This document shows, piece after piece, positions 38,181-46,803 of a DNA stretch of 64,000 bases (its first letter is position 1; every line of letters begins with the position of its first letter). A model generated the notes under the pieces. It did not search any database and was not told the origin of the DNA. It saw only the letters and a list, made by a program, of their open reading frames with translations. Source of the stretch: Staphylococcus phage AH12; sequence record OR455461.1; one strand, given 5' to 3'. A program made the position numbers and the translations under genes.

Positions 38181-38265
38181 TGTTCCTAATGAGATTCGAA
38201 CTCATAACCTACAGATAAATTTTAATTCATAAATCTGTACGCTCTGACCATTGAGCTATAGGAAC
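38181..38265 (-). tRNA. tRNA-like gene with aberrant anticodon arm (16-20 nt loop); isotype not assignable
   Basis: Canonical acceptor stem (GTTCCTA/TAGGAAC), D-arm GCTC-AATGGTCA-GAGC and T-arm ATGAG-TTCGAAT-CTCAT. The anticodon stem TACAGAT/ATCTGTA encloses a 16-nt loop. Confidence 0.45.
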
Positions 38266-38625: not shown

Positions 38626-38695
38626 AGCTTATCCGAGGGATCGAACCCCGGACACATGATGAAAATCATTGCTCTACCAACTGAGCTAGATAAAC
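38626..38695 (-). tRNA. tRNA gene (short anticodon arm: 4-bp stem and 6-nt loop; isotype uncertain), followed by T7 run
   Basis: Acceptor stem GTTTATC/GATAAGC, D-arm GCTC-AGTTGGTA-GAGC, T-arm CGGGG-TTCGATC-CCTCG. The anticodon region is ATGA-TTTTCA-TCAT. Confidence 0.5.
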
Positions 38696-38742: not shown

Positions 38743-38792
38743 TTAATAAATATAATCTTCTATATCAATTTCATTTTGTTTAATTGTCATAT
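38743..38792 (-). repeat. 50-bp duplicate of the beta-prime gene 3' end (encodes MTIKQNEIDIEDYIY*), differing from copy 40063-40112 only at 3 wobble positions
   Basis: Direct comparison of the two 50-mers: identical except for ata/att, gac/gat and atc/ata, all synonymous. Confidence 0.7.
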
Positions 38793-40027
38793 ATTCCTGA
38801 ATTATGATAATACAATTTTCTTTTATTATCAAAAATTTTCATGGGTTCTTTGATTTCTATTTTATCTTTCATTTTTAAATAATGACTATATTTCATATTA
38901 TCTAAAGAATTTGTTTTTACTTCTTTTTTGATAATATTTTCTAATTTTTCTTTTAAATTATAATTTTCATTCTCATATAAAAATACAGTAGAAAATTTAT
39001 TTTCTAAAAGAAATAGAGCTTTTTCTTGATGATAATATTTATCTTTAAATATTTCTGAATGCCAGTAAGCTCCATTACATTCGATAGCTATTTTTTCTTT
39101 AATATCATCAATATATAAAATTATATCAATTTCTCTTTTACCAATAAATTTATTATTTTCAATATGATAACTATAATTTTCGTTGTCTAAAATTTCTTTT
39201 AATTCATCCAATACATTAATTTCAAATAATGAACGTTGTTTAGAATTACATTTACAACCTCTAGGACGATATCTATCATAATTTATATAATCTTTAAAAA
39301 TAGTATTACATTTATTACATCTAAATGAATATATAAATTCTGAATTTATACCTTTAAATTCATCATAAGTGTTTAAAATGTCTATATCATATTTTTTTAA
39401 TAAATTCTTTAAATTATAATAAGTTTTATTTTTTCTAATTTTATTTAATTTTTCTTTTATGGTGTCATTTTTCATAGGATTGTCTACACCATATCTATTG
39501 ATAAAAGATTCTTTTATTATATTTGACATATTAGGTATTTCATAAATATTATTAGCATCAAATTTATTTTTTATTTGATCTTTAATATTTATGAAATTCC
39601 CATTATTTTTTAAAGTATTATGTGATTTAGAAGATATTACTTTATTTTTCATAGGATTGTCTACACCATATTTATCAATAAAAGCTTTCTTTCTTTTAAT
39701 ATTAAAATCTTCTATTTTATTCATATTGCTTGTTCCATACTTATCTTTTAAAGTTTTTCTTCCTTTTTCATATTTTTCAGGATCTTTCATAGAACAACTT
39801 CTAGAACAATATACTCCTAATTTATGTTTATTTTTTACAAATTTAACTTTATTTTTTCTACAATACTTACAGTAAATTACAGAATTTATATCATTTCTTA
39901 TATAGTACATTCTTTCAGATAAATTTACATCTTTAAATTCATTTAAAAAATCAGTGTATTTAATAATATCATTTTTATATTTATTTAAAGCAGGTCCTTT
40001 TATTTTCTTAATTTGTTCTAATTGCAT
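38780..40027 (-). CDS. homing-endonuclease-like protein with three (K/R)YGVDNPMKN repeats and a Vsr/DUF559-like nuclease domain
   Basis: AIECNGAYWHS motif. Repeated DKYGVDNPMKN modules. Its stop codon lies inside the duplicated 50-mer. Confidence 0.5.
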   Translation of the reverse strand: MQLEQIKKIKGPALNKYKNDIIKYTDFLNEFKDVNLSERMYYIRNDINSVIYCKYCRKNKVKFVKNKHKLGVYCSRSCSMKDPEKYEKGRKTLKDKYGTSNMNKIEDFNIKRKKAFIDKYGVDNPMKNKVISSKSHNTLKNNGNFINIKDQIKNKFDANNIYEIPNMSNIIKESFINRYGVDNPMKNDTIKEKLNKIRKNKTYYNLKNLLKKYDIDILNTYDEFKGINSEFIYSFRCNKCNTIFKDYINYDRYRPRGCKCNSKQRSLFEINVLDELKEILDNENYSYHIENNKFIGKREIDIILYIDDIKEKIAIECNGAYWHSEIFKDKYYHQEKALFLLENKFSTVFLYENENYNLKEKLENIIKKEVKTNSLDNMKYSHYLKMKDKIEIKEPMKIFDNKRKLYYHNSGIYDN

Positions 40028-40047
40028 ATTATCACCCTTTCTAAAAT

Positions 40048-40064
40048 GATAATATATATTTATT
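40048..40064 (-). promoter_or_regulatory. class-A-like motif AATAAATATATATTATC (minus strand)
   Basis: 20 nt upstream of the 40027 start. Overlaps the beta-prime stop. Confidence 0.3.
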
Positions 40065-40458
40065 AATAAATATAATCTTCGATGTCTATTTCATTTTGTT
40101 TAATTGTCATATCATGGAAAGACTTCATAGAGCTTGTTACAATTGCTTGAGCTACCTGATTGACTAATAAACCAATATTTTCTATACCTAATTTGTAAGG
40201 GAGTTCTCCTGCACATTTACTACAGATATCTTCACTTGCACAATACATAGGACTTCTGAAGTTCAATACTTTCCCAATATGCTCATCTACATTTGAAGTA
40301 GTTAACAGTGTTAATTGACCTTTTCTTCCTGAATTATCTTCAAAATATCTATAAAGTAAAAGATTCGCATTATCTTTAGTTAAAGTTAATTTTAATGTAT
40401 GTTTTGTTCTACAATCAGAACCTTGTTTATCTAATACAGTTGTTTGGAAAGCAGACAT
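40063..40458 (-). CDS. multisubunit RNAP beta-prime-like subunit, distal C-terminal exon
   Basis: RSPMYCASEDICSKCAG (compare RSPLTCE..GVCAKCYG) and GLLVNQVAQAIVTSSMKSFH (compare [21 protein letters not shown]). The reading frame is open upstream to 40479. Confidence 0.65.
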   Translation of the reverse strand: MSAFQTTVLDKQGSDCRTKHTLKLTLTKDNANLLLYRYFEDNSGRKGQLTLLTTSNVDEHIGKVLNFRSPMYCASEDICSKCAGELPYKLGIENIGLLVNQVAQAIVTSSMKSFHDMTIKQNEIDIEDYIY

Positions 40459-40482
40459 AAGTTTTTTAGCTTGATCATTTTA

Positions 40483-40603
40483 TTATCTATATTTTATTAT
40501 AGATTAGACTATATCTTATGAATTTAATCATTTCTATATTTAGTCGTTGAACAACTTAATAAAGTTGATGCTAGTTAGTTTTTAACATTCTAGCAATTAA
40601 TAG
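40483..40603 (-). mobile_element. group I intron-like element B (P TTAATTGCTAG, Q CTAGCATC, R GTTCAACGACTAAAT, S GATATAGTCT)
   Basis: All four core elements present in order on the minus strand. The P/Q pairing GCTAG:CTAGC covaries relative to GCTGA:TCAGC in the other four copies. Confidence 0.5.
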
Positions 40604-40644
40604 AATTTATTGTGAGCATCTAATTTACCCACCTTCTTGAGTCA

Positions 40645-40816
40645 TTTATGTTAATCTATATTAATTTAATATAGATCAGACTATATCAAAAACTCTTTAT
40701 GAGTTTAATTATATTTAGTCGTTGAACAATCATTCTGATTGATGCTGATTAAGTTTATCTCTTCTCAGCAATTAATAATTTTTCTATTATTACATTACTA
40801 TAATAAAGGGCATTCA
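40645..40816 (-). mobile_element. group I intron-like element A, with 5' region ATGCCCTTTATTATAGTAATGTAATAATAGAAAAAT shared with the intron at 45210
   Basis: P, Q, R and S elements in order (rc of 40764-40775, 40741-40752, 40713-40727, 40678-40688). The upstream exon ends ...GGTATATGA. Confidence 0.5.
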
Positions 40817-41617
40817 TATACCTAAAGCACGTCCAGCTGAACCAGCAGTCATAATGTCTCCAAACATATATAGTTCTTCTGGATCAATTCCATCAGCTAA
40901 AGAACTCTTAGCAATACGTATTTTACTAGGATCAGCGAAGTTTTTATTTGCTCCACGTATTAATGCAGTTAACTTGAAGTTATTTCCAAAACTACCTCTT
41001 GATCCACTATCATAAATATCAAGGTCTGCTAAACCTTCTAATTCTTCTTTACTTAACTTAATTAATTCTTTTTCAATAGCACTAATAGCATTCAATTCTT
41101 CACCAGGAGTATTTAATGCTTTACCATATTTCTCTAGTAATTCTTCTTTCTTTTGTTTAACTTTATCAGGAGCAACCATCATTGTAGTTGTCAAACTAGA
41201 ATTAATAAATCCTGCTATAGAGAAACCAAGCCATTGAAGTTTATCAATATACATATTCATATCTTTAGTTGTAATAACATCATTAAGTAATAAACTAGAT
41301 AACTCAGATTGTAGATTTCCTACACCTGATCCTCCCATATCTTTATTCATATATCCTATAATAGGTCCTATTTTATTGTCTAATATAAATTTATTAAATA
41401 TATATCTTCCAACTGTTGTTCTTTCATCTTTACTATTATAAACTAAATCTTTTTTAAGTTTAAATCTATCGCTAGGATTAAACATTGGTTGTGTATTTTG
41501 TCTAAATGCAAATAATTCTTTAAGTTTATCAAGAGTAATATCTTCTTTTTTTATACTTAATAAAGTTGATACTTCTTTCTCAGATAAATCTTTTTTATCA
41601 TAAGTCATATTAACCAA
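40814..41617 (-). CDS. multisubunit RNAP beta-prime-like subunit, proximal C-terminal exon
   Basis: DSGSRGSFGNNFKLTALIRG (compare [21 protein letters not shown]) and TAGSAGRALG (compare STHGARKGLADT). Confidence 0.65.
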   Translation of the reverse strand: MVNMTYDKKDLSEKEVSTLLSIKKEDITLDKLKELFAFRQNTQPMFNPSDRFKLKKDLVYNSKDERTTVGRYIFNKFILDNKIGPIIGYMNKDMGGSGVGNLQSELSSLLLNDVITTKDMNMYIDKLQWLGFSIAGFINSSLTTTMMVAPDKVKQKKEELLEKYGKALNTPGEELNAISAIEKELIKLSKEELEGLADLDIYDSGSRGSFGNNFKLTALIRGANKNFADPSKIRIAKSSLADGIDPEELYMFGDIMTAGSAGRALGI

Positions 41618-41933: not shown

Positions 41934-44900
41934 GTGAAGTATCTTAATAGATTAAAGAATTTAAAATTCTATTCAATTTCAGGATATAAGATTAAAGCTA
42001 TAGATGAAAATATTAAGGATCAAAAGAAAAACCAATTAATAATTTATAAAGGTTTTAAAGAAAATTCATTTATAGAATTCTTAAATAGTGGTATATTATA
42101 TTATCAAAATTTCAAGAATATTTATACTCCTAGAATATATAGAACAGCAAATAGAAAATCAAGATTAATTACTAATATTTCAGATTATCAACAAGAAATT
42201 AAAAGTAAATCAATTAAATCTTATAGAGTTGAAAGAAATGAGAAATTATTTAAAGGAAGAAACTATATAGTTGATTCAAGTAAATTTATCAATCTTGAAG
42301 ATAAATCTTTAATGACTAAGAATTTTAAAACTGTATCAGATTCAATTAAAAATACTTATAATAATTTAAATAATCCAGAAGAATATGAAAATTTATTATA
42401 TGTAATTAATGTAGATGGATACAATAAATCTTCTCAAGAAGCTATTAGACCAAATACAAAAGATTTTATGTCAAGTTTATTTATGATGATTAAGAATCAG
42501 GAAGAATTACCTCATAAAGAAAATCAAAATGTAGTAGCTTTATTTATTTCTATTGAGAACGGTATAATGTTTAAATTTGATTTTAAAGATTATAATAAAT
42601 TCAATAATAGATTAAGACAAAGATTAAGAAGAGCTATTGATTTAAATACACAACAAATAGATACAGATGAAATTTCTAATGTTGAAGATGATGATAATAC
42701 AGAAGCTATAGATTCAACTATTAAAAAGAAATCATTTAGCAATGTTAAAGATATTGATCCAGTTGAATTACAAGATAAGAATGAAGATGAAGTTAATCAG
42801 GATATTGAAGATTCTAAGATGGAAAAAATATCTAAGAAAATAGATGATACATTAAGATATATTAAATCTAATGATAATATTGATATGGATATTAATGATG
42901 AATATAATATTGCAATGATAATTGAAAAAGAATTAAACAATAATAATGATCTTATTGATATTGATGAAGATACATTATACAATGATGTACTTGATAAGAA
43001 TGATTCATTTAAATCAATTAAAAGAGATATTAAAAATAAATCATATATTGGAGACACTGCATTAAAGAATTCTAAAAAGATATTATCACTAGCTAAAAAT
43101 CAAGATGAATATCTTGAAAAATTAGAAGATTTTAGTTTCTCTGAAGATAGTATTATTGATAGAGAAATTAATGAAAATGTCAATAGTATTAATGATGAAG
43201 CAATAAACAATGTATCTTCAAATGATTTTGACTTATCTTATATGAAAAAGACATTTAATAAAGACTTTGTAAATATTATGAAGAGTTTTAATGATAAGGA
43301 AGAAATACCAGTATTCATTAACAAAATGAATGTAGAAGATAATTCAGATTCTCAATCATTAAAGAATACTGTAAAAGTTCAATTTAAGAGTCCTGATGGA
43401 ATTAACCATAATGTAAAATTTGATGTACCTAAAATTATTGATGGTAAATATTTAAAATTAAATGGTGGTAAAAAGGTTCTAACTAAACAATTAATGATGT
43501 ATCCTATTGTTAAATATAGACCAGATACAGTTTGGATTACAACTAATTATAATAAATTTATCATTGAAAAATTTGGTACTAAAGAGAATTCTGAAACTGA
43601 ATGGCTTAAAAAAGTTATTGAAGATAAACAAGTACTAGAATACATTAAAGATAAAAATGATATTAATATTCAAAAAGGTAACTCATCTTTAATTAATAAA
43701 GAATATTTAACTTCTGTGTTGTATAATAATTTATCTAAAAATATATTAAGATTCTCTAAAGATGATTTGATAATTGATTTTAATCAAAGAAATCTTAAAA
43801 AAGTTATTTCAGAAAGTAAAACTTTAAGTGAAATTGATTATGATAAAGATAAATACTATCCTATCGGTTATAGTTCAAACAAATCTAAATTAATATTGTC
43901 AAATACTACAGAATCTATTATTTTTAAAGCTACTAAAAGTAATATAGAATCTATGAATATTAATATTACAGATTATATTATTGAACAACTTGAAGATAAT
44001 ATTGATTTTAGTCTAATAGATAAAAAATTCAGTAAAAATATTCAAGCTAGTAAAACAATGGCATTTTCTCGTGTTAAAATTACTAATAAATTAATTCCTA
44101 CAATAGTATTATTAGGTTTCTATAAAGGTTTAACTAGTATTCTTGATCTTTATGAAGTTGATTATAAGTTTGTTGAAGAAAATGAAAGAATAACTATTAA
44201 AGATAAGAAGAATAAAATTAAATTCCAAAATGGTTATCTTATTTATTCAACAGATAAATTAAGATATGATTTATTATTATCAGGATTAAATACTATTCCT
44301 ACTTCACAATATGACTTTGAAGAATTTAATAGTGAAACACCTTACTTAGAATACTTTAATGATAAGTTCTATAGTCGTAATGTTGGTAAAGGAATTAAAA
44401 ATGCATTAGATTTAGCAATGGATCCTATTACAGAAGATGTATTAAGAGATTTAAAATTACCTGAAACTATGGTTGAGTTATTACTCTTAGCTAATACCAT
44501 GCTAGAAGATGTAACTGCTAGAGAACACAATGACATGGGAATATATCGTGTACGTGGTCCAGAACAAGTTAATGCTTTAATGTATAAAATGATTGCAAAT
44601 GCATATAAAGAATATTCTGACTCTTACAATAATAAGAATCCTAAGAATATTTCAGTTAAACAAGACCAATTAATTAAAACTATTATGGAACAACCTACTG
44701 TAGATGAAGTATCTGATCTTAATCCATCTTTAGAGATTGATAAGATGACTTCAGTAACTTTTAAAGGTCCAGCAGGACGTAATAATGAACAATCATATGA
44801 ACCTGATATTCGTTCATATAGTGAAAGTATGCAAGGCGTATTAGGAATATCTAGTCCTGATAGTAATAAAATTGGGGTAGTTAGACAGCTTTCATATAAT

Positions 44901-45050
44901 TCATTAATTAAATCTACTAGAGGTTATACTGATGGCGGTAAAAAAGATGCTAATGATACATCTCTATACACTCCATTAGAATTACTTAACCCTTATTCTA
45001 GTAGACATGCCGATAATCAAACATGGATAGTCGGCTTAAAAACTATTTAA
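41934..45050 (+). CDS. multisubunit RNAP beta-like subunit, exon 1
   Basis: C-terminal KGPAGRNNEQSYEPDIRSYS ... SPDSNKIGVVRQLSYNS matches [25 protein letters not shown] ... TPEGPNIGLINSLS. The stop TAA is the first triplet of the P element. Confidence 0.65.
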   Translation: MKYLNRLKNLKFYSISGYKIKAIDENIKDQKKNQLIIYKGFKENSFIEFLNSGILYYQNFKNIYTPRIYRTANRKSRLITNISDYQQEIKSKSIKSYRVERNEKLFKGRNYIVDSSKFINLEDKSLMTKNFKTVSDSIKNTYNNLNNPEEYENLLYVINVDGYNKSSQEAIRPNTKDFMSSLFMMIKNQEELPHKENQNVVALFISIENGIMFKFDFKDYNKFNNRLRQRLRRAIDLNTQQIDTDEISNVEDDDNTEAIDSTIKKKSFSNVKDIDPVELQDKNEDEVNQDIEDSKMEKISKKIDDTLRYIKSNDNIDMDINDEYNIAMIIEKELNNNNDLIDIDEDTLYNDVLDKNDSFKSIKRDIKNKSYIGDTALKNSKKILSLAKNQDEYLEKLEDFSFSEDSIIDREINENVNSINDEAINNVSSNDFDLSYMKKTFNKDFVNIMKSFNDKEEIPVFINKMNVEDNSDSQSLKNTVKVQFKSPDGINHNVKFDVPKIIDGKYLKLNGGKKVLTKQLMMYPIVKYRPDTVWITTNYNKFIIEKFGTKENSETEWLKKVIEDKQVLEYIKDKNDINIQKGNSSLINKEYLTSVLYNNLSKNILRFSKDDLIIDFNQRNLKKVISESKTLSEIDYDKDKYYPIGYSSNKSKLILSNTTESIIFKATKSNIESMNINITDYIIEQLEDNIDFSLIDKKFSKNIQASKTMAFSRVKITNKLIPTIVLLGFYKGLTSILDLYEVDYKFVEENERITIKDKKNKIKFQNGYLIYSTDKLRYDLLLSGLNTIPTSQYDFEEFNSETPYLEYFNDKFYSRNVGKGIKNALDLAMDPITEDVLRDLKLPETMVELLLLANTMLEDVTAREHNDMGIYRVRGPEQVNALMYKMIANAYKEYSDSYNNKNPKNISVKQDQLIKTIMEQPTVDEVSDLNPSLEIDKMTSVTFKGPAGRNNEQSYEPDIRSYSESMQGVLGISSPDSNKIGVVRQLSYNSLIKSTRGYTDGGKKDANDTSLYTPLELLNPYSSRHADNQTWIVGLKTI

Positions 45051-45145
45051 TTGCTGAAATTACTTTAAAGTTAATCAGCATCAATCAAATTGTTCAACGA
45101 CTAAATAATAGATACTAATTATATAATTAGTAATGATATAGTCTC
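45048..45145 (+). mobile_element. group I intron-like element 1 (P 45048, Q 45071, R 45092, S 45135)
   Basis: TAATTGCTGAAA ... TTAATCAGCATC ... GTTCAACGACTAAAT ... GATATAGTCT in order. About 100 nt. Confidence 0.45.
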
Positions 45146-45209
45146 AACTATGTATAAAGTATATAGAAATAAGATAATGTCTCCACGTATTGGAATGACT
45201 GGTATATGA
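45141..45209 (+). CDS. putative micro-exon (VSTMYKVYRNKIMSPRIGMTGI)
   Basis: Open frame between elements 1 and 2. NKIMSP loosely resembles NRALMG of beta. Ends GGTATATGA, exactly as the beta-prime exon before element A does. Confidence 0.3.
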   Translation, partial: VSTMYKVYRNKIMSPRIGMTGI

Positions 45210-45410
45210 ATGCCCTTTATTATAGTAATATAATAATAGAAAAATCTTTAATTGCTGAGAAAATAATAATTAAGTTAATCAGCATCAATCAAATTGTTCA
45301 ACGACTAAATAAGATTATACCTAAACGGTATTTGATATAGTCTCAGCTTTAATTTATTTTAAAGAAGTTCATTAAGAACTAATACACAATAAACAAAGTG
45401 TATTAAGATA
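45210..45410 (+). mobile_element. group I intron-like element 2 (P 45249, Q 45272, R 45293, S 45334) with shared 5' region
   Basis: ATGCCCTTTATTATAGTAATATAATAATAGAAAAAT followed by P, Q, R and S in order. Confidence 0.45.
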
Positions 45411-45865
45411 ATCTGACTCAAGCCAAGCACGTAATTCCAACAAAAACTAATAGTAAACCATTAGTTGGATCTGGTGTTGATAAATCTTTAGCTTATCAAT
45501 TATCAGATACATTTGCTTTTAAAGCTAAACAAGATGGTAAAGTATTAAAAATTAACGAGAAAACTGGTTTAATGACAGTAGAATATATCAATGGTGAAAA
45601 AGATATTGTTGATATATCTGAAAAATTAGCCAAAAACTCTAACTCAGGTTTTTATCAATCTAATAAACTTGATCCACAATTTAATGTAGATGACACTTTT
45701 AATAAAGGTCAAATACTTGCTAAAAATAATAATTTCTTTGCTGGATCCGGTAAAGATAATGATATTCAATTTACTTCAGGTAAATTATCTAAAGTATCTG
45801 TAGCTAGCTCATATGGTATTATAAATGCCTTTCATTATAGTAATGTAATGTCAAAAAATTATTAA
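45407..45865 (+). CDS. RNAP beta-like subunit, exon 3
   Basis: NLTQAKHVIPTKTNSKPLVGSGVDKS ... KAKQDGKVLKI matches [23 protein letters not shown] ... AKRGGVVQYV. Track ORF 45572..45865 is the ATG-limited part of this open frame. Confidence 0.55.
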   Translation, partial: DNLTQAKHVIPTKTNSKPLVGSGVDKSLAYQLSDTFAFKAKQDGKVLKINEKTGLMTVEYINGEKDIVDISEKLAKNSNSGFYQSNKLDPQFNVDDTFNKGQILAKNNNFFAGSGKDNDIQFTSGKLSKVSVASSYGIINAFHYSNVMSKNY

Positions 45866-45992
45866 TTGCTGAGAAATATTAAATTAATCAGCATCTCTAC
45901 ATTTATAGAGTTCAACGACTAAATATGATTATTCATTAATACTAATGAATTTGATATAGTCTAATCTATTATAAAAATATAATAGCTAATAT
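45866..45992 (+). mobile_element. group I intron-like element 3 (~127 nt; P4/P5, P6, P7, P8 and P9 hairpins assignable)
   Basis: TAATTGCTGAG ... TTAATCAGCATC, CTCTA/TAGAG hairpin, GTTCAACGACTAAAT, ATTCATTA/TAATGAAT hairpin, GATATAGTCT, CTATTATA/TATAATAG hairpin. Confidence 0.5.
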
Positions 45993-45994
45993 AA

Positions 45995-46756
45995 ATGACT
46001 TATGAAGATAGTTCTATTATTTCTAGTAGTATGTCTGAAGCAATGTCTACTAAAGTTACTATGAAGAAAACAGTAAATATTCCATCAAACACAAATATTC
46101 AATATATAGTTAAAGAAGGTCAGAAAGTACGTACAGGTGATCCTTTAATGATATTTGAAACTTCATTTGATGAAGAAGGTATTGGTTCTTTATTAGATAA
46201 AATCGGTAGTGAATTTGAACAAGATATTCAAGATATAGCTAATCGAGCTGTTAGAAGTAAATATACAGGTAATATTAAAAAGATTAATATTTATTATAAT
46301 GATGATATTGAAAATATGACTGATAGTTTAGCTAAATTAGTTAATAATTACATTAAAAAATCAAATGATAAATATAAAGAATATAAATCTGGAGTTAAAA
46401 ATAATAAAGAAACTTTACCTGGTATTGATGTAGATATTGCAGCTGTAGAGAAAATTAATACAGAGAAAATTAAAGGAGAAAAAGTTGACGGAGTTCTTAT
46501 TGAAATCTTCACTGAATATGAAGATGATATGAGTGTTGGAGATAAAATTAGTTTCTACGGAGCTTGTAAAACTGTAGTTGCTGATGTAACTCCTCCAAAT
46601 GAATCACCTTATTCTGAATATAGATCTGATGAAGAAGTTGAAGCTGTATTCTCTCCATTAAGTATTGTCTCTCGTATGACAGTTGATATTTATATGATGT
46701 TATTCACAAATAAAGCTTTAATAGAATTAAAACGTAAAGTAAAAGATATGGTATAA
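45995..46756 (+). CDS. RNAP beta-like subunit, exon 4
   Basis: EGQKVRTGDPLM (compare GEPVERGDVLADG) and GDKISFYGACKTVVADVTPP ... SPLSIVSRMTV (compare GDKMAGRHGNKGVISKINP ... NPLGVPSRMNIGQ). Confidence 0.6.
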   Translation: MTYEDSSIISSSMSEAMSTKVTMKKTVNIPSNTNIQYIVKEGQKVRTGDPLMIFETSFDEEGIGSLLDKIGSEFEQDIQDIANRAVRSKYTGNIKKINIYYNDDIENMTDSLAKLVNNYIKKSNDKYKEYKSGVKNNKETLPGIDVDIAAVEKINTEKIKGEKVDGVLIEIFTEYEDDMSVGDKISFYGACKTVVADVTPPNESPYSEYRSDEEVEAVFSPLSIVSRMTVDIYMMLFTNKALIELKRKVKDMV

Positions 46757-46763
46757 AATTTAT

Positions 46764-46799
46764 AAGATGATTAATATCTATTTAATCATCTTTTTTTTA
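46764..46799 (+). terminator. rho-independent terminator after the beta gene
   Basis: AAGATGATTAA / TTAATCATCTT 11-bp stem followed by T8. Confidence 0.55.
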
Positions 46800-46803
46800 T
46801 TTT

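What the first reader, a model, noticed from the sequence alone, without database searches (positions are those of the whole stretch)
41934..46756. RNAP beta-like gene interrupted by three miniature group I intron-like elements and a micro-exon
Four protein-coding segments align colinearly to bacterial RNAP beta, from the GPGG ... TPEGPNIGL region to GDKM ... PSRMNIG. They are separated by three 100-200 nt inserts. Each insert carries the canonical group I P, Q, R and S core sequences in order, with P4 and P7 complementarity. Element 3 also has assignable P5, P6, P8 and P9 hairpins.

Every upstream exon frame terminates in, or immediately before, the P element. The open segment 45141-45209 between elements 1 and 2 encodes ~22 aa with weak similarity to the NRALMG region. 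At 100-130 nt these would be among the smallest group I introns, and they lack HE ORFs. The multiplicity inside one polymerase gene is striking.
Basis: partly seen in the sequence, partly recalled or inferred. Interest (0 to 1): 0.8.

Follow-up and report, generated by a model that had tools for sequence, protein, structure and literature searches.

The report
Compact group I introns splitting phage RNA polymerase genes
A Staphylococcus jumbo phage's RNA polymerase beta gene is interrupted by three small (165-212 nt) group I introns and a 24-nt micro-exon; the reading is correct, but this is a documented feature of these phages, not a new kind of element.

Summary

**What is there**
- The window comes from an S6/Machias/PB50-like Staphylococcus jumbo phage.
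- The uninterrupted 1417-aa homologue of phage S6 maps onto four exactly abutting pieces. This defines intron I1 at 45015-45179 (165 nt), I2 at 45204-45415 (212 nt) and I3 at 45818-45997 (180 nt).
- The micro-exon is 24 nt, at 45180-45203, and encodes SPRIGMTG.
- Each intron follows a U that forms a U·G pair in P1, and each ends in G.
- Each intron has P1, P3-P9 and the conserved core sequences.
- A covariance model finds exactly five copies in the window. Its helices covary strongly across 71 distinct family members.
- The other two copies (177 and 151 nt) split the neighbouring beta-prime gene around a 16-nt micro-exon.

- The introns are 165-212 nt, not 100-130 nt.
- The micro-exon is 8 codons, not about 22.
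- Rfam's model matches all three below its gathering score.

**Novelty**
- I3 is identical, and I2 is 210/212 identical, to introns already annotated as exon joins in phage Machias.
- Introns in jumbo-phage RNA polymerase genes are published.
- Three introns with a 23-nt exon are published for phage Twort.
- Group I introns averaging about 206 nt are published for huge gut phages.

Splicing itself was not tested here. Interest is modest.

The parts
41934..45014 (+). Exon 1 of the virion RNAP beta-like gene (GTG start; ends ...SSRHAD, phase 0)
   Evidence: S6 aa 1-1023 map here at 78% identity. The ORF reads on into the intron to a TAA at 45048-45050.
45015..45179 (+). Intron I1, 165 nt, group I, no P2, no ORF. 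P1 is exon GCCGAU paired with the internal guide sequence (IGS) GUCGGC, with U·G at the splice site. It ends ...GAUAAUG.
   Evidence: RF00028, 36.1 bits; 104 bits. It is 163/165 identical to the PB50 insert. LY01 has exon GCGGAU paired with IGS GUUCGC, a compensatory change in P1.
45180..45203 (+). Micro-exon, 24 nt, TCTCCACGTATTGGAATGACTGGT = SPRIGMTG. It is the counterpart of bacterial beta NRALMGAN.
   Evidence: 100% identical to S6 aa 1024-1031. It aligns without gaps to PDB RNAP beta.
45204..45415 (+). Intron I2, 212 nt, group I, with P2 (GUAA loop) and two extra 3' hairpins after P9, no ORF. P1 is GGU|AU paired with AUGCC.
   Evidence: 31.5 bits; 113.8 bits. It is 210/212 identical to the intron annotated by a CDS join in Machias.
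45416..45817 (+). Exon 3 (134 aa, TQAKHVIP...VASSYG)
   Evidence: S6 aa 1032-1165 map here at 78% identity. There is no in-frame start codon before 45572.
45818..45997 (+). Intron I3, 180 nt, group I, with P2 (GUAA loop), no ORF. P1 is GGU|AU paired with AUGCC. It ends ...AUAAAUG.
   Evidence: 15.9 bits; 90.7 bits; z = -2.8; the MFE fold shows P1, P2, P4/5, P6, P7/8 and P9. It is 180/180 identical to the Machias intron.
45998..46756 (+). Exon 4 (TYEDSSII... to the stop codon)
   Evidence: S6 aa 1166-1418 map here at 86% identity.
40820..41617 (-). Exon 1 of the neighbouring virion RNAP beta-prime (mid-domain) gene, ending ...GSAGRALG
   Evidence: S6 BDE75639 aa 1-266 map here.
40643..40819 (-). 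Beta-prime intron bp_I1, 177 nt, group I. Its first 58 nt are 55/58 identical to I2, and the target site is GGT^ACTCAAG, as for I2.
   Evidence: (117.8 bits).
40627..40642 (-). Beta-prime micro-exon, 16 nt (ACTCAAGAAGGTGGGT; encodes TQEGG plus the first base of a Tyr codon)
   Evidence: The spliced product reads ...RALGTQEGGYQAKKLMSAFQ, matching uninterrupted S6 ...RALGTQEGGYQAKQLMSAFQ.
40476..40626 (-). Beta-prime intron bp_I2, 151 nt, group I without P2. It is the smallest in the window. P1 is GUGGGU paired with GCUCAC.
   Evidence: 85 bits; z = -3.2. It is 99.3% identical to Machias within its joined beta-prime CDS.
40063..40475 (-). Beta-prime exon 3 (..QAKKLMSAFQTT... to the stop codon)
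   Evidence: S6 aa 273-399 map here. The spliced ORF is 408 aa.

Best explanation
The region is one gene for the C-terminal beta-like subunit of the phage's virion RNA polymerase. It is transcribed as a precursor carrying three compact, ORF-less group I introns.

**Inferred mechanism**
- Each intron folds into a stripped-down P1-P9 core. I1 lacks P2, and P5, P6, P8 and P9 are 3-8 bp hairpins.
- An exogenous guanosine attacks after the U of the P1 U·G pair.
- The terminal G then docks in P7 and the exons are ligated. This restores a 1421-aa reading frame.
- Adjacent introns use different internal guide sequences (I1 GUCGGC, I2 UGCC). This should keep the 24-nt micro-exon from being skipped.

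**Origin**
- The introns belong to a multi-copy family. There are 5 copies in this window and about 7-25 BLAST-detectable places per related genome.
- The family sits in the most conserved catalytic motifs of essential genes.
- It is gained and lost between related phages, probably by recombination during co-infection. That may be helped by homing endonucleases encoded in sister introns or by free-standing genes.

**Shown:** anatomy, exact junctions, presence/absence polymorphism, covariation.
**Inferred:** splicing chemistry, autonomy of splicing, mode of spread.
For: - **Junctions.** Intron-less S6 maps onto four exactly abutting pieces. The same holds for the beta-prime gene.
- **Presence/absence among relatives**. 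S6 and SA1 have none. Madawaska has I1. PB50 has I1 and I3. Machias has an endonuclease-bearing intron after aa 976, plus I2 and I3. LY01 has five introns. MarsHill and PALS_2 have an ORF-bearing intron 7 nt upstream of the I2 site.
- **Splice-site rules.** All junctions obey the U(-1)·G and terminal-G rules.
- **P1 compensation.** The pairing is GCCGAU/GUCGGC in the window and GCGGAU/GUUCGC in LY01.
- **Rfam.** RF00028 gives full-length local hits at E = 3e-7 and 7e-6.
- **RNAalifold** finds P4, P6, P7, P8 and P9, with 13 of 29 pairs compensated.
- **Covariance model R1.** It gives five hits in the window and nothing else, and 212 hits in relatives and IMG/VR large phages.
- **Covariation.** 95.5% of cells are paired, and the covariation score is 0.79 against 0.07-0.15 for slid controls.
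- **Folding.** MFE folds recover the helices, with z = -3.2 and -2.8.
- **Protein.** The spliced product aligns without gaps to bacterial RNAP beta across the junctions.
- **Annotation and literature.** Machias and Madawaska CDSs are annotated as joins. Korn et al. report that RNAP genes of these phages and of AR9 are intron-disrupted.
Against: - No RNA data or splicing assay was available, so excision is inferred.
- All three introns score below Rfam's gathering threshold. I3 alone is not significant (15.9 bits, E = 0.37).
- The introns lack the usual peripheral stabilisers. There is no P5abc or P7.1/7.2, L9 is not a GNRA loop, and two members lack P2. GC content is about 20%, so autonomous folding at physiological Mg2+ is uncertain.
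- P1 of I2 and I3 uses only 3 exon nucleotides.
- The covariation alignment was fitted to the model, which inflates pairing percentages.
Confidence: 0.92

Rival explanations
1. True split gene. The four segments would be translated separately and assembled as subunits, as other jumbo-phage RNAP subunits are. The inserts would be intergenic spacers.
For: - Jumbo-phage beta and beta-prime are naturally divided into N- and C-terminal genes.
- PB50, LY01 and PALS_2 records annotate the pieces as separate CDSs.
- An ATG sits immediately before exon 4.
Against: - The 24-nt segment has no start codon and encodes 8 residues.
- The conserved coding sequence of exon 3 begins 52 codons upstream of its first possible start.
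- The ATG before exon 4 is the family-wide AAAUG intron terminus. The same sequence ends bp_I1 and the LY01 introns at unrelated sites.
- Close relatives have one uninterrupted ORF.
- The spacers carry a covarying ribozyme core.
Confidence: 0.03
2. The inserts are decayed, non-functional intron relics or other small insertions, and the gene is a pseudogene in this phage.
For: The Rfam scores are sub-threshold, the elements are extremely small, and they encode no endonuclease.
Against: - The virion RNAP is needed for early transcription in this phage group.
- All core sequences are intact and identical among the five copies.
- The helices keep pairing through compensatory change.
- The exons remain open and conserved exactly up to the junctions.
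- The same introns persist at 97-100% identity in viable isolates Machias and PB50.
Confidence: 0.03
3. This is a refinement rather than an alternative. The elements are group I introns but are not autonomous ribozymes, and efficient splicing in vivo needs a host or phage protein (chaperone or maturase-like cofactor) because peripheral tertiary contacts have been lost.
For: - The stems are very AT-rich and short. There is no L9 GNRA loop or receptor, and P2 is absent in I1 and bp_I2.
- MFE frequencies in the ensemble are below 1%.
- Minimal group I introns generally depend on direct compact contacts, while others recruit proteins (PMC2813881).
Against: - Phage group I introns studied so far, such as those of T4 and Twort, self-splice in vitro (own knowledge).
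- Related compact introns in huge gut phages are spliced in metatranscriptomes, though that does not address cofactors.
Confidence: 0.3

Closest known systems
Intron-interrupted virion RNAP beta gene of Staphylococcus phage Machias (CPT_Machias_170, MW349128), and the Madawaska and MarsHill homologues (Korn et al., bioRxiv 10.1101/2020.12.14.422802)
   Same: It is the same gene and the same I2 and I3 sites. I3 is 180/180 identical and I2 is 210/212 identical. The CDS is annotated as a join of 4 exons. Madawaska carries an intron at the I1 site.
   Different: - Machias lacks I1, so it has no 24-nt micro-exon. It has an extra endonuclease-bearing intron after aa 976.
- The authors predicted exon boundaries by protein alignment only. 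They did not describe ribozyme structure, size or micro-exons.
Staphylococcus phage Twort orf142: three self-splicing group I introns with a 23-nt exon and exon skipping (Landthaler & Shub 1999, as summarised in PMC10136302)
   Same: There are three group I introns in one phage gene of a Staphylococcus phage. A very short exon (23 nt, against 24 nt here) is flanked by two introns.
   Different: - It is a different gene and a different phage lineage.
- Twort introns 2 and 3 are highly similar to each other and skip the exon. Here the flanking introns I1 and I2 are 64% identical and have different guide sequences.
- Splicing is demonstrated for Twort and not here.
Introns in RNAP and other genes of Bacillus jumbo phage AR9 (Lavysh et al. 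2016, cited)
   Same: It is a related uracil-DNA jumbo phage in which RNAP subunit genes are interrupted by introns. Mature mRNA was determined experimentally.
   Different: Intron positions and numbers differ between AR9 and the Staphylococcus phages. The AR9 paper itself could not be read here.
Compact group I introns of huge gut 'Jug' phages (Sci Adv 2026, PMC12880540)
   Same: There are many small ORF-less group I introns per genome (mean about 206 nt, 18.5 per genome) fragmenting essential genes, with splicing seen in metatranscriptomes. The pattern scan and the model from this window both pick up many large IMG/VR phage contigs.
   Different: The hosts (Bacteroides) and genes emphasised (terL, nrdD, DNA polymerase) differ. 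Whether the IMG/VR hits are Jug phages was not established.
Azoarcus pre-tRNA-Ile group I intron (about 205 nt), the usual reference for a minimal self-splicing group I ribozyme (own knowledge)
   Same: It has a minimal P1-P9 architecture without large peripheral domains.
   Different: - The introns here are 151-212 nt and about 20% GC. They lack the two GNRA-receptor contacts that stabilise Azoarcus, and two of them lack P2.
- They sit in protein-coding genes, not in a tRNA.

Membership tests
Group I intron (Rfam RF00028) | Score at or above Rfam's gathering threshold (50 bits) | tested here: not met
   No hit at the gathering threshold. A local scan gives 36.1, 31.5 and 15.9 bits, full length over model positions 1-253, with E = 3e-7, 7e-6 and 0.37. 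The shortfall comes from large deletions in P2, P5, P6, P8 and P9 relative to the model.
Group I intron | 5' splice site after a U that forms a U·G wobble in P1 with an internal guide sequence | tested here: met
   Junctions set independently by S6 protein colinearity fall after GCCGAU (guide GUCGGC) for I1 and after GGU (guide UGCC) for I2 and I3. In LY01, exon and guide sequence change together.
Group I intron | Terminal (omega) G at the 3' splice site | tested here: met
   All five window introns, and all relatives' introns examined, end in G at the colinearity-defined junction.
Group I intron | Conserved core helices P3-P4-P6 and P7-P3-P8, in order, with the P/Q/R/S sequences | tested here: met
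   - Exact motif hits are present in order.
- RNAalifold finds P4, P6, P7, P8 and P9.
- P3, P4, P6, P8 and P9 are 92-100% paired, and 25 of 29 pairs show double-sided changes across 71 distinct sequences.
- P7 is invariant, so it is uninformative.
Group I intron | Guanosine-dependent self-splicing and exon ligation | not testable with these tools
   No RNA or biochemical data were available. Support is indirect only: restoration of the ORF, and splicing reported for AR9 and for compact introns of huge phages.
Mobile (homing) group I intron | Intron-encoded homing endonuclease | tested here: not met
   - I1-I3 are 165-212 nt. The only ORFs of 20 aa or more lying within them are 22-23 aa, and the two longer ones (31 and 44 aa) start in the flanking exon.
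- Sister introns do carry ORFs: Machias after aa 976, LY01 after aa 528, and MarsHill/PALS_2 in the Met-1029 codon.
- A free-standing DUF7487/REase-like ORF lies next to the beta-prime gene.
Mobile (homing) group I intron | Presence/absence polymorphism at identical sites among related genomes | tested here: met
   Relatives carry 0 to 5 introns in this one gene, always at the same precise sites.
Bacterial-type multisubunit RNAP beta subunit (host gene) | Sequence similarity to RpoB catalytic regions | tested here: met
   phmmer against PDB hits RpoB at E = 6.5e-7. It covers the [10 protein letters not shown]...PLVGTG and GDKM...PSRMN regions. Pfam finds nothing, so this is a very divergent member. 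Relatives annotate it as viral RNA polymerase beta subunit, C-terminal.

The most novel reading that the evidence does not exclude
- The P2-less members (151 nt in beta-prime, 165 nt I1) could be the smallest natural, protein-independent self-splicing group I ribozymes. They would be well below the roughly 205-nt Azoarcus benchmark.
- The family could spread without an endonuclease, by reverse splicing into short GGU^ACU-type sites. I2 and bp_I1 share 55/58 of their first nucleotides and the target GGT^ACTCAAG in two different genes.
- Micro-exons of 16-24 nt, and about 14 nt in IMG/VR relatives, would show how little exon two neighbouring ribozymes need.
Probability: 0.2. Interest if true: 0.55.

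Novelty: new member of a known kind. Interest (0 to 1): 0.3.

Why it matters
**Annotation.** The three pieces must be joined into one 1421-aa virion RNAP beta subunit. The beta-prime pieces must likewise be joined into one 408-aa protein. Several public records of related phages (PB50, LY01, PALS_2) still list them as separate genes.

**Biology.**
- It adds one more allele to a well-documented picture of selfish group I introns packed into the catalytic motifs of jumbo-phage polymerases.
- Three different insertion sites lie within the same 24 nt among relatives.

**Possible wider value.** These are unusually stripped-down ribozymes of 151-212 nt and about 20% GC, belonging to a large family with strong covariation. 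If they self-splice, they would be attractive minimal models.

Tried and rejected
- **Rfam at gathering threshold:** only two tRNAs were found.
- **Whole-window Rfam scan at E <= 1:** it lost the intron hits because the filters are stricter on long input. The local scan recovered them.
- **Pfam on the spliced beta and beta-prime proteins:** no family was found, because they are too divergent. PDB phmmer was used instead.
- **Possible ORF-bearing intron at 16.6-17.4 kb:** this was suggested by single motif hits. Neither Rfam nor R1 supports it.
- **Literature on the smallest group I intron:** the searches returned nothing usable. The size comparison with Azoarcus therefore rests on my own knowledge.
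- **Papers not held:** the AR9 genome paper and the Twort orf142 paper were unavailable. Their content is cited second-hand.
- **P5:** it was left out of the covariance model because MAFFT placed it in different registers. It is seen only in single-sequence folds.
- **P10:** no convincing pairing with the 3' exon was found by eye.
- **Alternatives rejected:**
  - Inteins: the inserts are closed by stop codons in the exon frame — within 6-36 nt for I1 and I2 and at nt 46-48 of I3 (the TAA at 45863-45865) — and S6 colinearity places them outside the protein.
  - Translational bypassing: a covarying ribozyme core accounts for the inserts.
  - Subgroup assignment (IA/IC): not attempted, because no subgroup models were available.

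Full report
**Source of the window.** Megablast of 44400-46800 against phage genomes hits only Staphylococcus jumbo phages. The best are PB50 (95%) and Machias (97%). LY01, Madawaska, S6, UFV_DC4, PALS_2, MarsHill and SA1 match at 82-87%. These are AR9-like phages that carry virion and non-virion multisubunit RNA polymerases.

**Checking the observation.** In phage S6 the homologous gene is a single 4254-nt ORF. tblastn of its product on the window gives four pieces that abut perfectly in the query:
- aa 1-1023 = 41934-45014
- aa 1024-1031 = 45180-45203 (SPRIGMTG, 8/8 identical)
- aa 1032-1165 = 45416-45817
- aa 1166-1418 = 45998-46756

This defines the inserts:
- I1 = 45015-45179 (165 nt)
- I2 = 45204-45415 (212 nt)
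- I3 = 45818-45997 (180 nt)
- micro-exon = 45180-45203 (24 nt)

The joined ORF is 1421 aa with no internal stop. Its C-terminal part matches bacterial RpoB chains in the PDB at E = 6.5e-7. The alignment runs without gaps through both micro-exon junctions: HADSPRIGMTGTQAKHVIP against [19 protein letters not shown]. Pfam does not recognise the protein.

**Are the inserts group I introns?**
- *Rfam.* Nothing appears at gathering threshold. A local scan gives three full-length RF00028 alignments of 36.1, 31.5 and 15.9 bits, with E = 3e-7, 7e-6 and 0.37.
- *Core motifs.* TTAATTGCTG, TTCAACGACTAAA and GATATAGTCT occur exactly, once each and in order, in every insert.
- *Splice sites.* The junctions come from protein colinearity alone, yet they obey the group I rules.
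  - I1 follows GCCGAU, which pairs with GUCGGC in the intron and leaves U·G at the cleavage site.
  - I2 and I3 follow GGU, which pairs with UGCC.
  - All three introns end in G.
- *Compensation in P1.* In LY01 the I1-site exon reads GCGGAU and the guide sequence reads GUUCGC. This is a compensatory change across the exon/intron boundary.
- *Folding.* Unconstrained MFE folding recovers several helices:
  - P1;
  - P2 (with a GUAA loop, in I2 and I3);
  - P4/P5, P6, P7 enclosing P8, and P9.
  - Z-scores are -3.2 and -2.8. P3 is a pseudoknot partner and cannot appear in such folds. By inspection it pairs in all copies, with changes such as CUAUU/AAUAG against AAUCUU/AAGAUU.
- *RNAalifold.* On nine copies it finds P4, P6, P7, P8 and P9, with 13 of 29 pairs compensated.

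**A family-specific model.**
- I built a covariance model of the core from nine copies.
- With filters off it finds five hits in the 64 kb and nothing else, at E = 1e-12 to 1e-18.
- A motif-pattern scan of IMG/VR returned more than 120 stretches, nearly all from contigs of 100-400 kb.
- Run over 80 of those loci plus the relatives' loci, the model gave 212 hits.
- On 71 distinct sequences, 95.5% of cells form standard pairs. The covariation score is 0.79, against 0.19 for shuffles and 0.07-0.15 for slid partners. All pairs of P3, P6, P8 and P9 show double-sided changes.
- The alignment was fitted to the model, so the percentages are optimistic. The contrast with the slid controls is nevertheless large.

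**Two more introns and a second micro-exon.**
- The other two model hits lie on the minus strand, in the adjacent beta-prime (mid-domain) gene.
- bp_I1 is 40819-40643 (177 nt) and bp_I2 is 40626-40476 (151 nt). They flank a 16-nt micro-exon at 40642-40627.
- The spliced product reads ...RALGTQEGGYQAKKLMSAFQ.... Uninterrupted S6 reads ...RALGTQEGGYQAKQLMSAFQ....
- Machias annotates this gene as a join as well.
- bp_I2 uses P1 GUGGGU/GCUCAC and lacks P2.

**Variation among relatives**.

| Phage | Introns in the beta gene |
|---|---|
| S6, SA1 | none |
| Madawaska | I1-site intron |
| PB50 | I1 (163/165 identical) and I3 (177/180) |
| Machias | 1.4-kb endonuclease-bearing intron after aa 976, I2 (210/212), I3 (180/180) |
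| LY01 | five: after aa 528 (ORF-bearing), 976, 1023, 1031 and 1165 |
| MarsHill, PALS_2 | 1.3-kb ORF-bearing intron after the second base of the Met-1029 codon |

- The MarsHill/PALS_2 intron uses P1 GGGAU/GUCCC.
- Three different insertion sites therefore fall inside the 24 nt that form the micro-exon here. This segment encodes the counterpart of the bacterial NRALMG active-site motif.
- BLAST with the 151-nt intron finds 7-25 places per related genome.
- I2 and bp_I1 share 55 of their first 58 nt. They sit in identical 10-nt targets, GGT^ACTCAAG, in two different genes. This points to ectopic spread or recombination between copies.

**Rivals.**
- *Split gene.* This is excluded for practical purposes.
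  - The micro-exon has no start codon.
  - The first 52 conserved codons of exon 3 precede any in-frame start.
  - The ATG before exon 4 is the family's conserved AAAUG terminus.
- *Pseudogene.* This is unlikely given the intact, covarying cores and the persistence of the introns in viable isolates.
- *Open question.* Such AT-rich, peripheral-less RNAs may or may not splice without protein help.

**Comparison with what is known.**
[quoted passage not shown] They annotated the joins.
- Phage Twort's orf142 has three group I introns and a 23-nt exon that can be skipped. Coxiella 23S rRNA has a 34-nt exon between two introns.
- Huge gut phages carry on average 18.5 group I introns of about 206 nt, many shown to be spliced in metatranscriptomes.
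- An IMG/VR contig found here carries five cores within 950 nt of what looks like a beta-prime gene around NADFDGD. One micro-exon there is about 14 nt.

**Verdict.**
- Corrections: the sizes are 165, 212 and 180 nt, the micro-exon is 24 nt (8 aa), and the novelty was overstated.
- This is a new allele of a documented phenomenon. Two of the three introns are essentially identical to ones already annotated.
- Residual interest lies in the extreme compactness (down to 151 nt) and in the tiny exons. These would matter only if autonomous self-splicing is shown.

Noticed in passing
window 40476-40819 (minus strand): Two further compact group I introns (177 and 151 nt) interrupt the neighbouring virion RNAP beta-prime gene. 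They are separated by a 16-nt micro-exon. The 151-nt intron lacks P2 and is the smallest in the window.
   Followed up: yes
window 38743-40112 (minus strand): A 415-aa ORF (38780-40027) matches DUF7487 and, weakly, a REase_MTES_1575 nuclease domain. It is flanked by a 50-bp direct repeat (47/50 identical) of the 3' end of the beta-prime gene, at 40112-40063 and 38792-38743. This looks like the footprint of a free-standing homing-endonuclease cassette inserted at the gene's end.
   Followed up: partly
window 45180-45203 and relatives L006/L007: Among related phages, three different introns are inserted within the same 24 nt. The sites are after Asp-1023, after the second base of the Met-1029 codon (MarsHill/PALS_2, ORF-bearing), and after Gly-1031. 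This is an insertion hot spot in the most conserved beta motif.
   Followed up: yes
window 45204-45261 and 40819-40762: I2 (beta gene) and bp_I1 (beta-prime gene) share 55/58 identical 5' nucleotides (P1-P2-P3-P4) and the same 10-nt target GGT^ACTCAAG. They diverge in P5, P6, P8 and P9. This suggests mosaic introns, arising from ectopic transposition or inter-intron recombination.
   Followed up: partly
L046 12380-13325; L039 856-4205 (IMG/VR large-phage contigs): Tandem arrays of five to seven compact group I cores lie within 1-3.4 kb of single genes, with gaps of 37-72 nt between cores. One inferred micro-exon is about 14 nt, and the catalytic NADFDGD motif of a beta-prime-like gene appears to be split.
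   Followed up: partly
L003 (PB50), L004 (LY01), L007 (PALS_2): Public records annotate the exon pieces of this gene as separate 'RNA polymerase beta subunit' or 'hypothetical protein' CDSs with spurious starts. LY01 actually has five introns in the gene.
   Followed up: partly
window 38181-38265 and 38626-38695 (minus strand): Two tRNA genes lie just downstream of the beta-prime/endonuclease region (Rfam, 60 and 45.8 bits).
   Followed up: no
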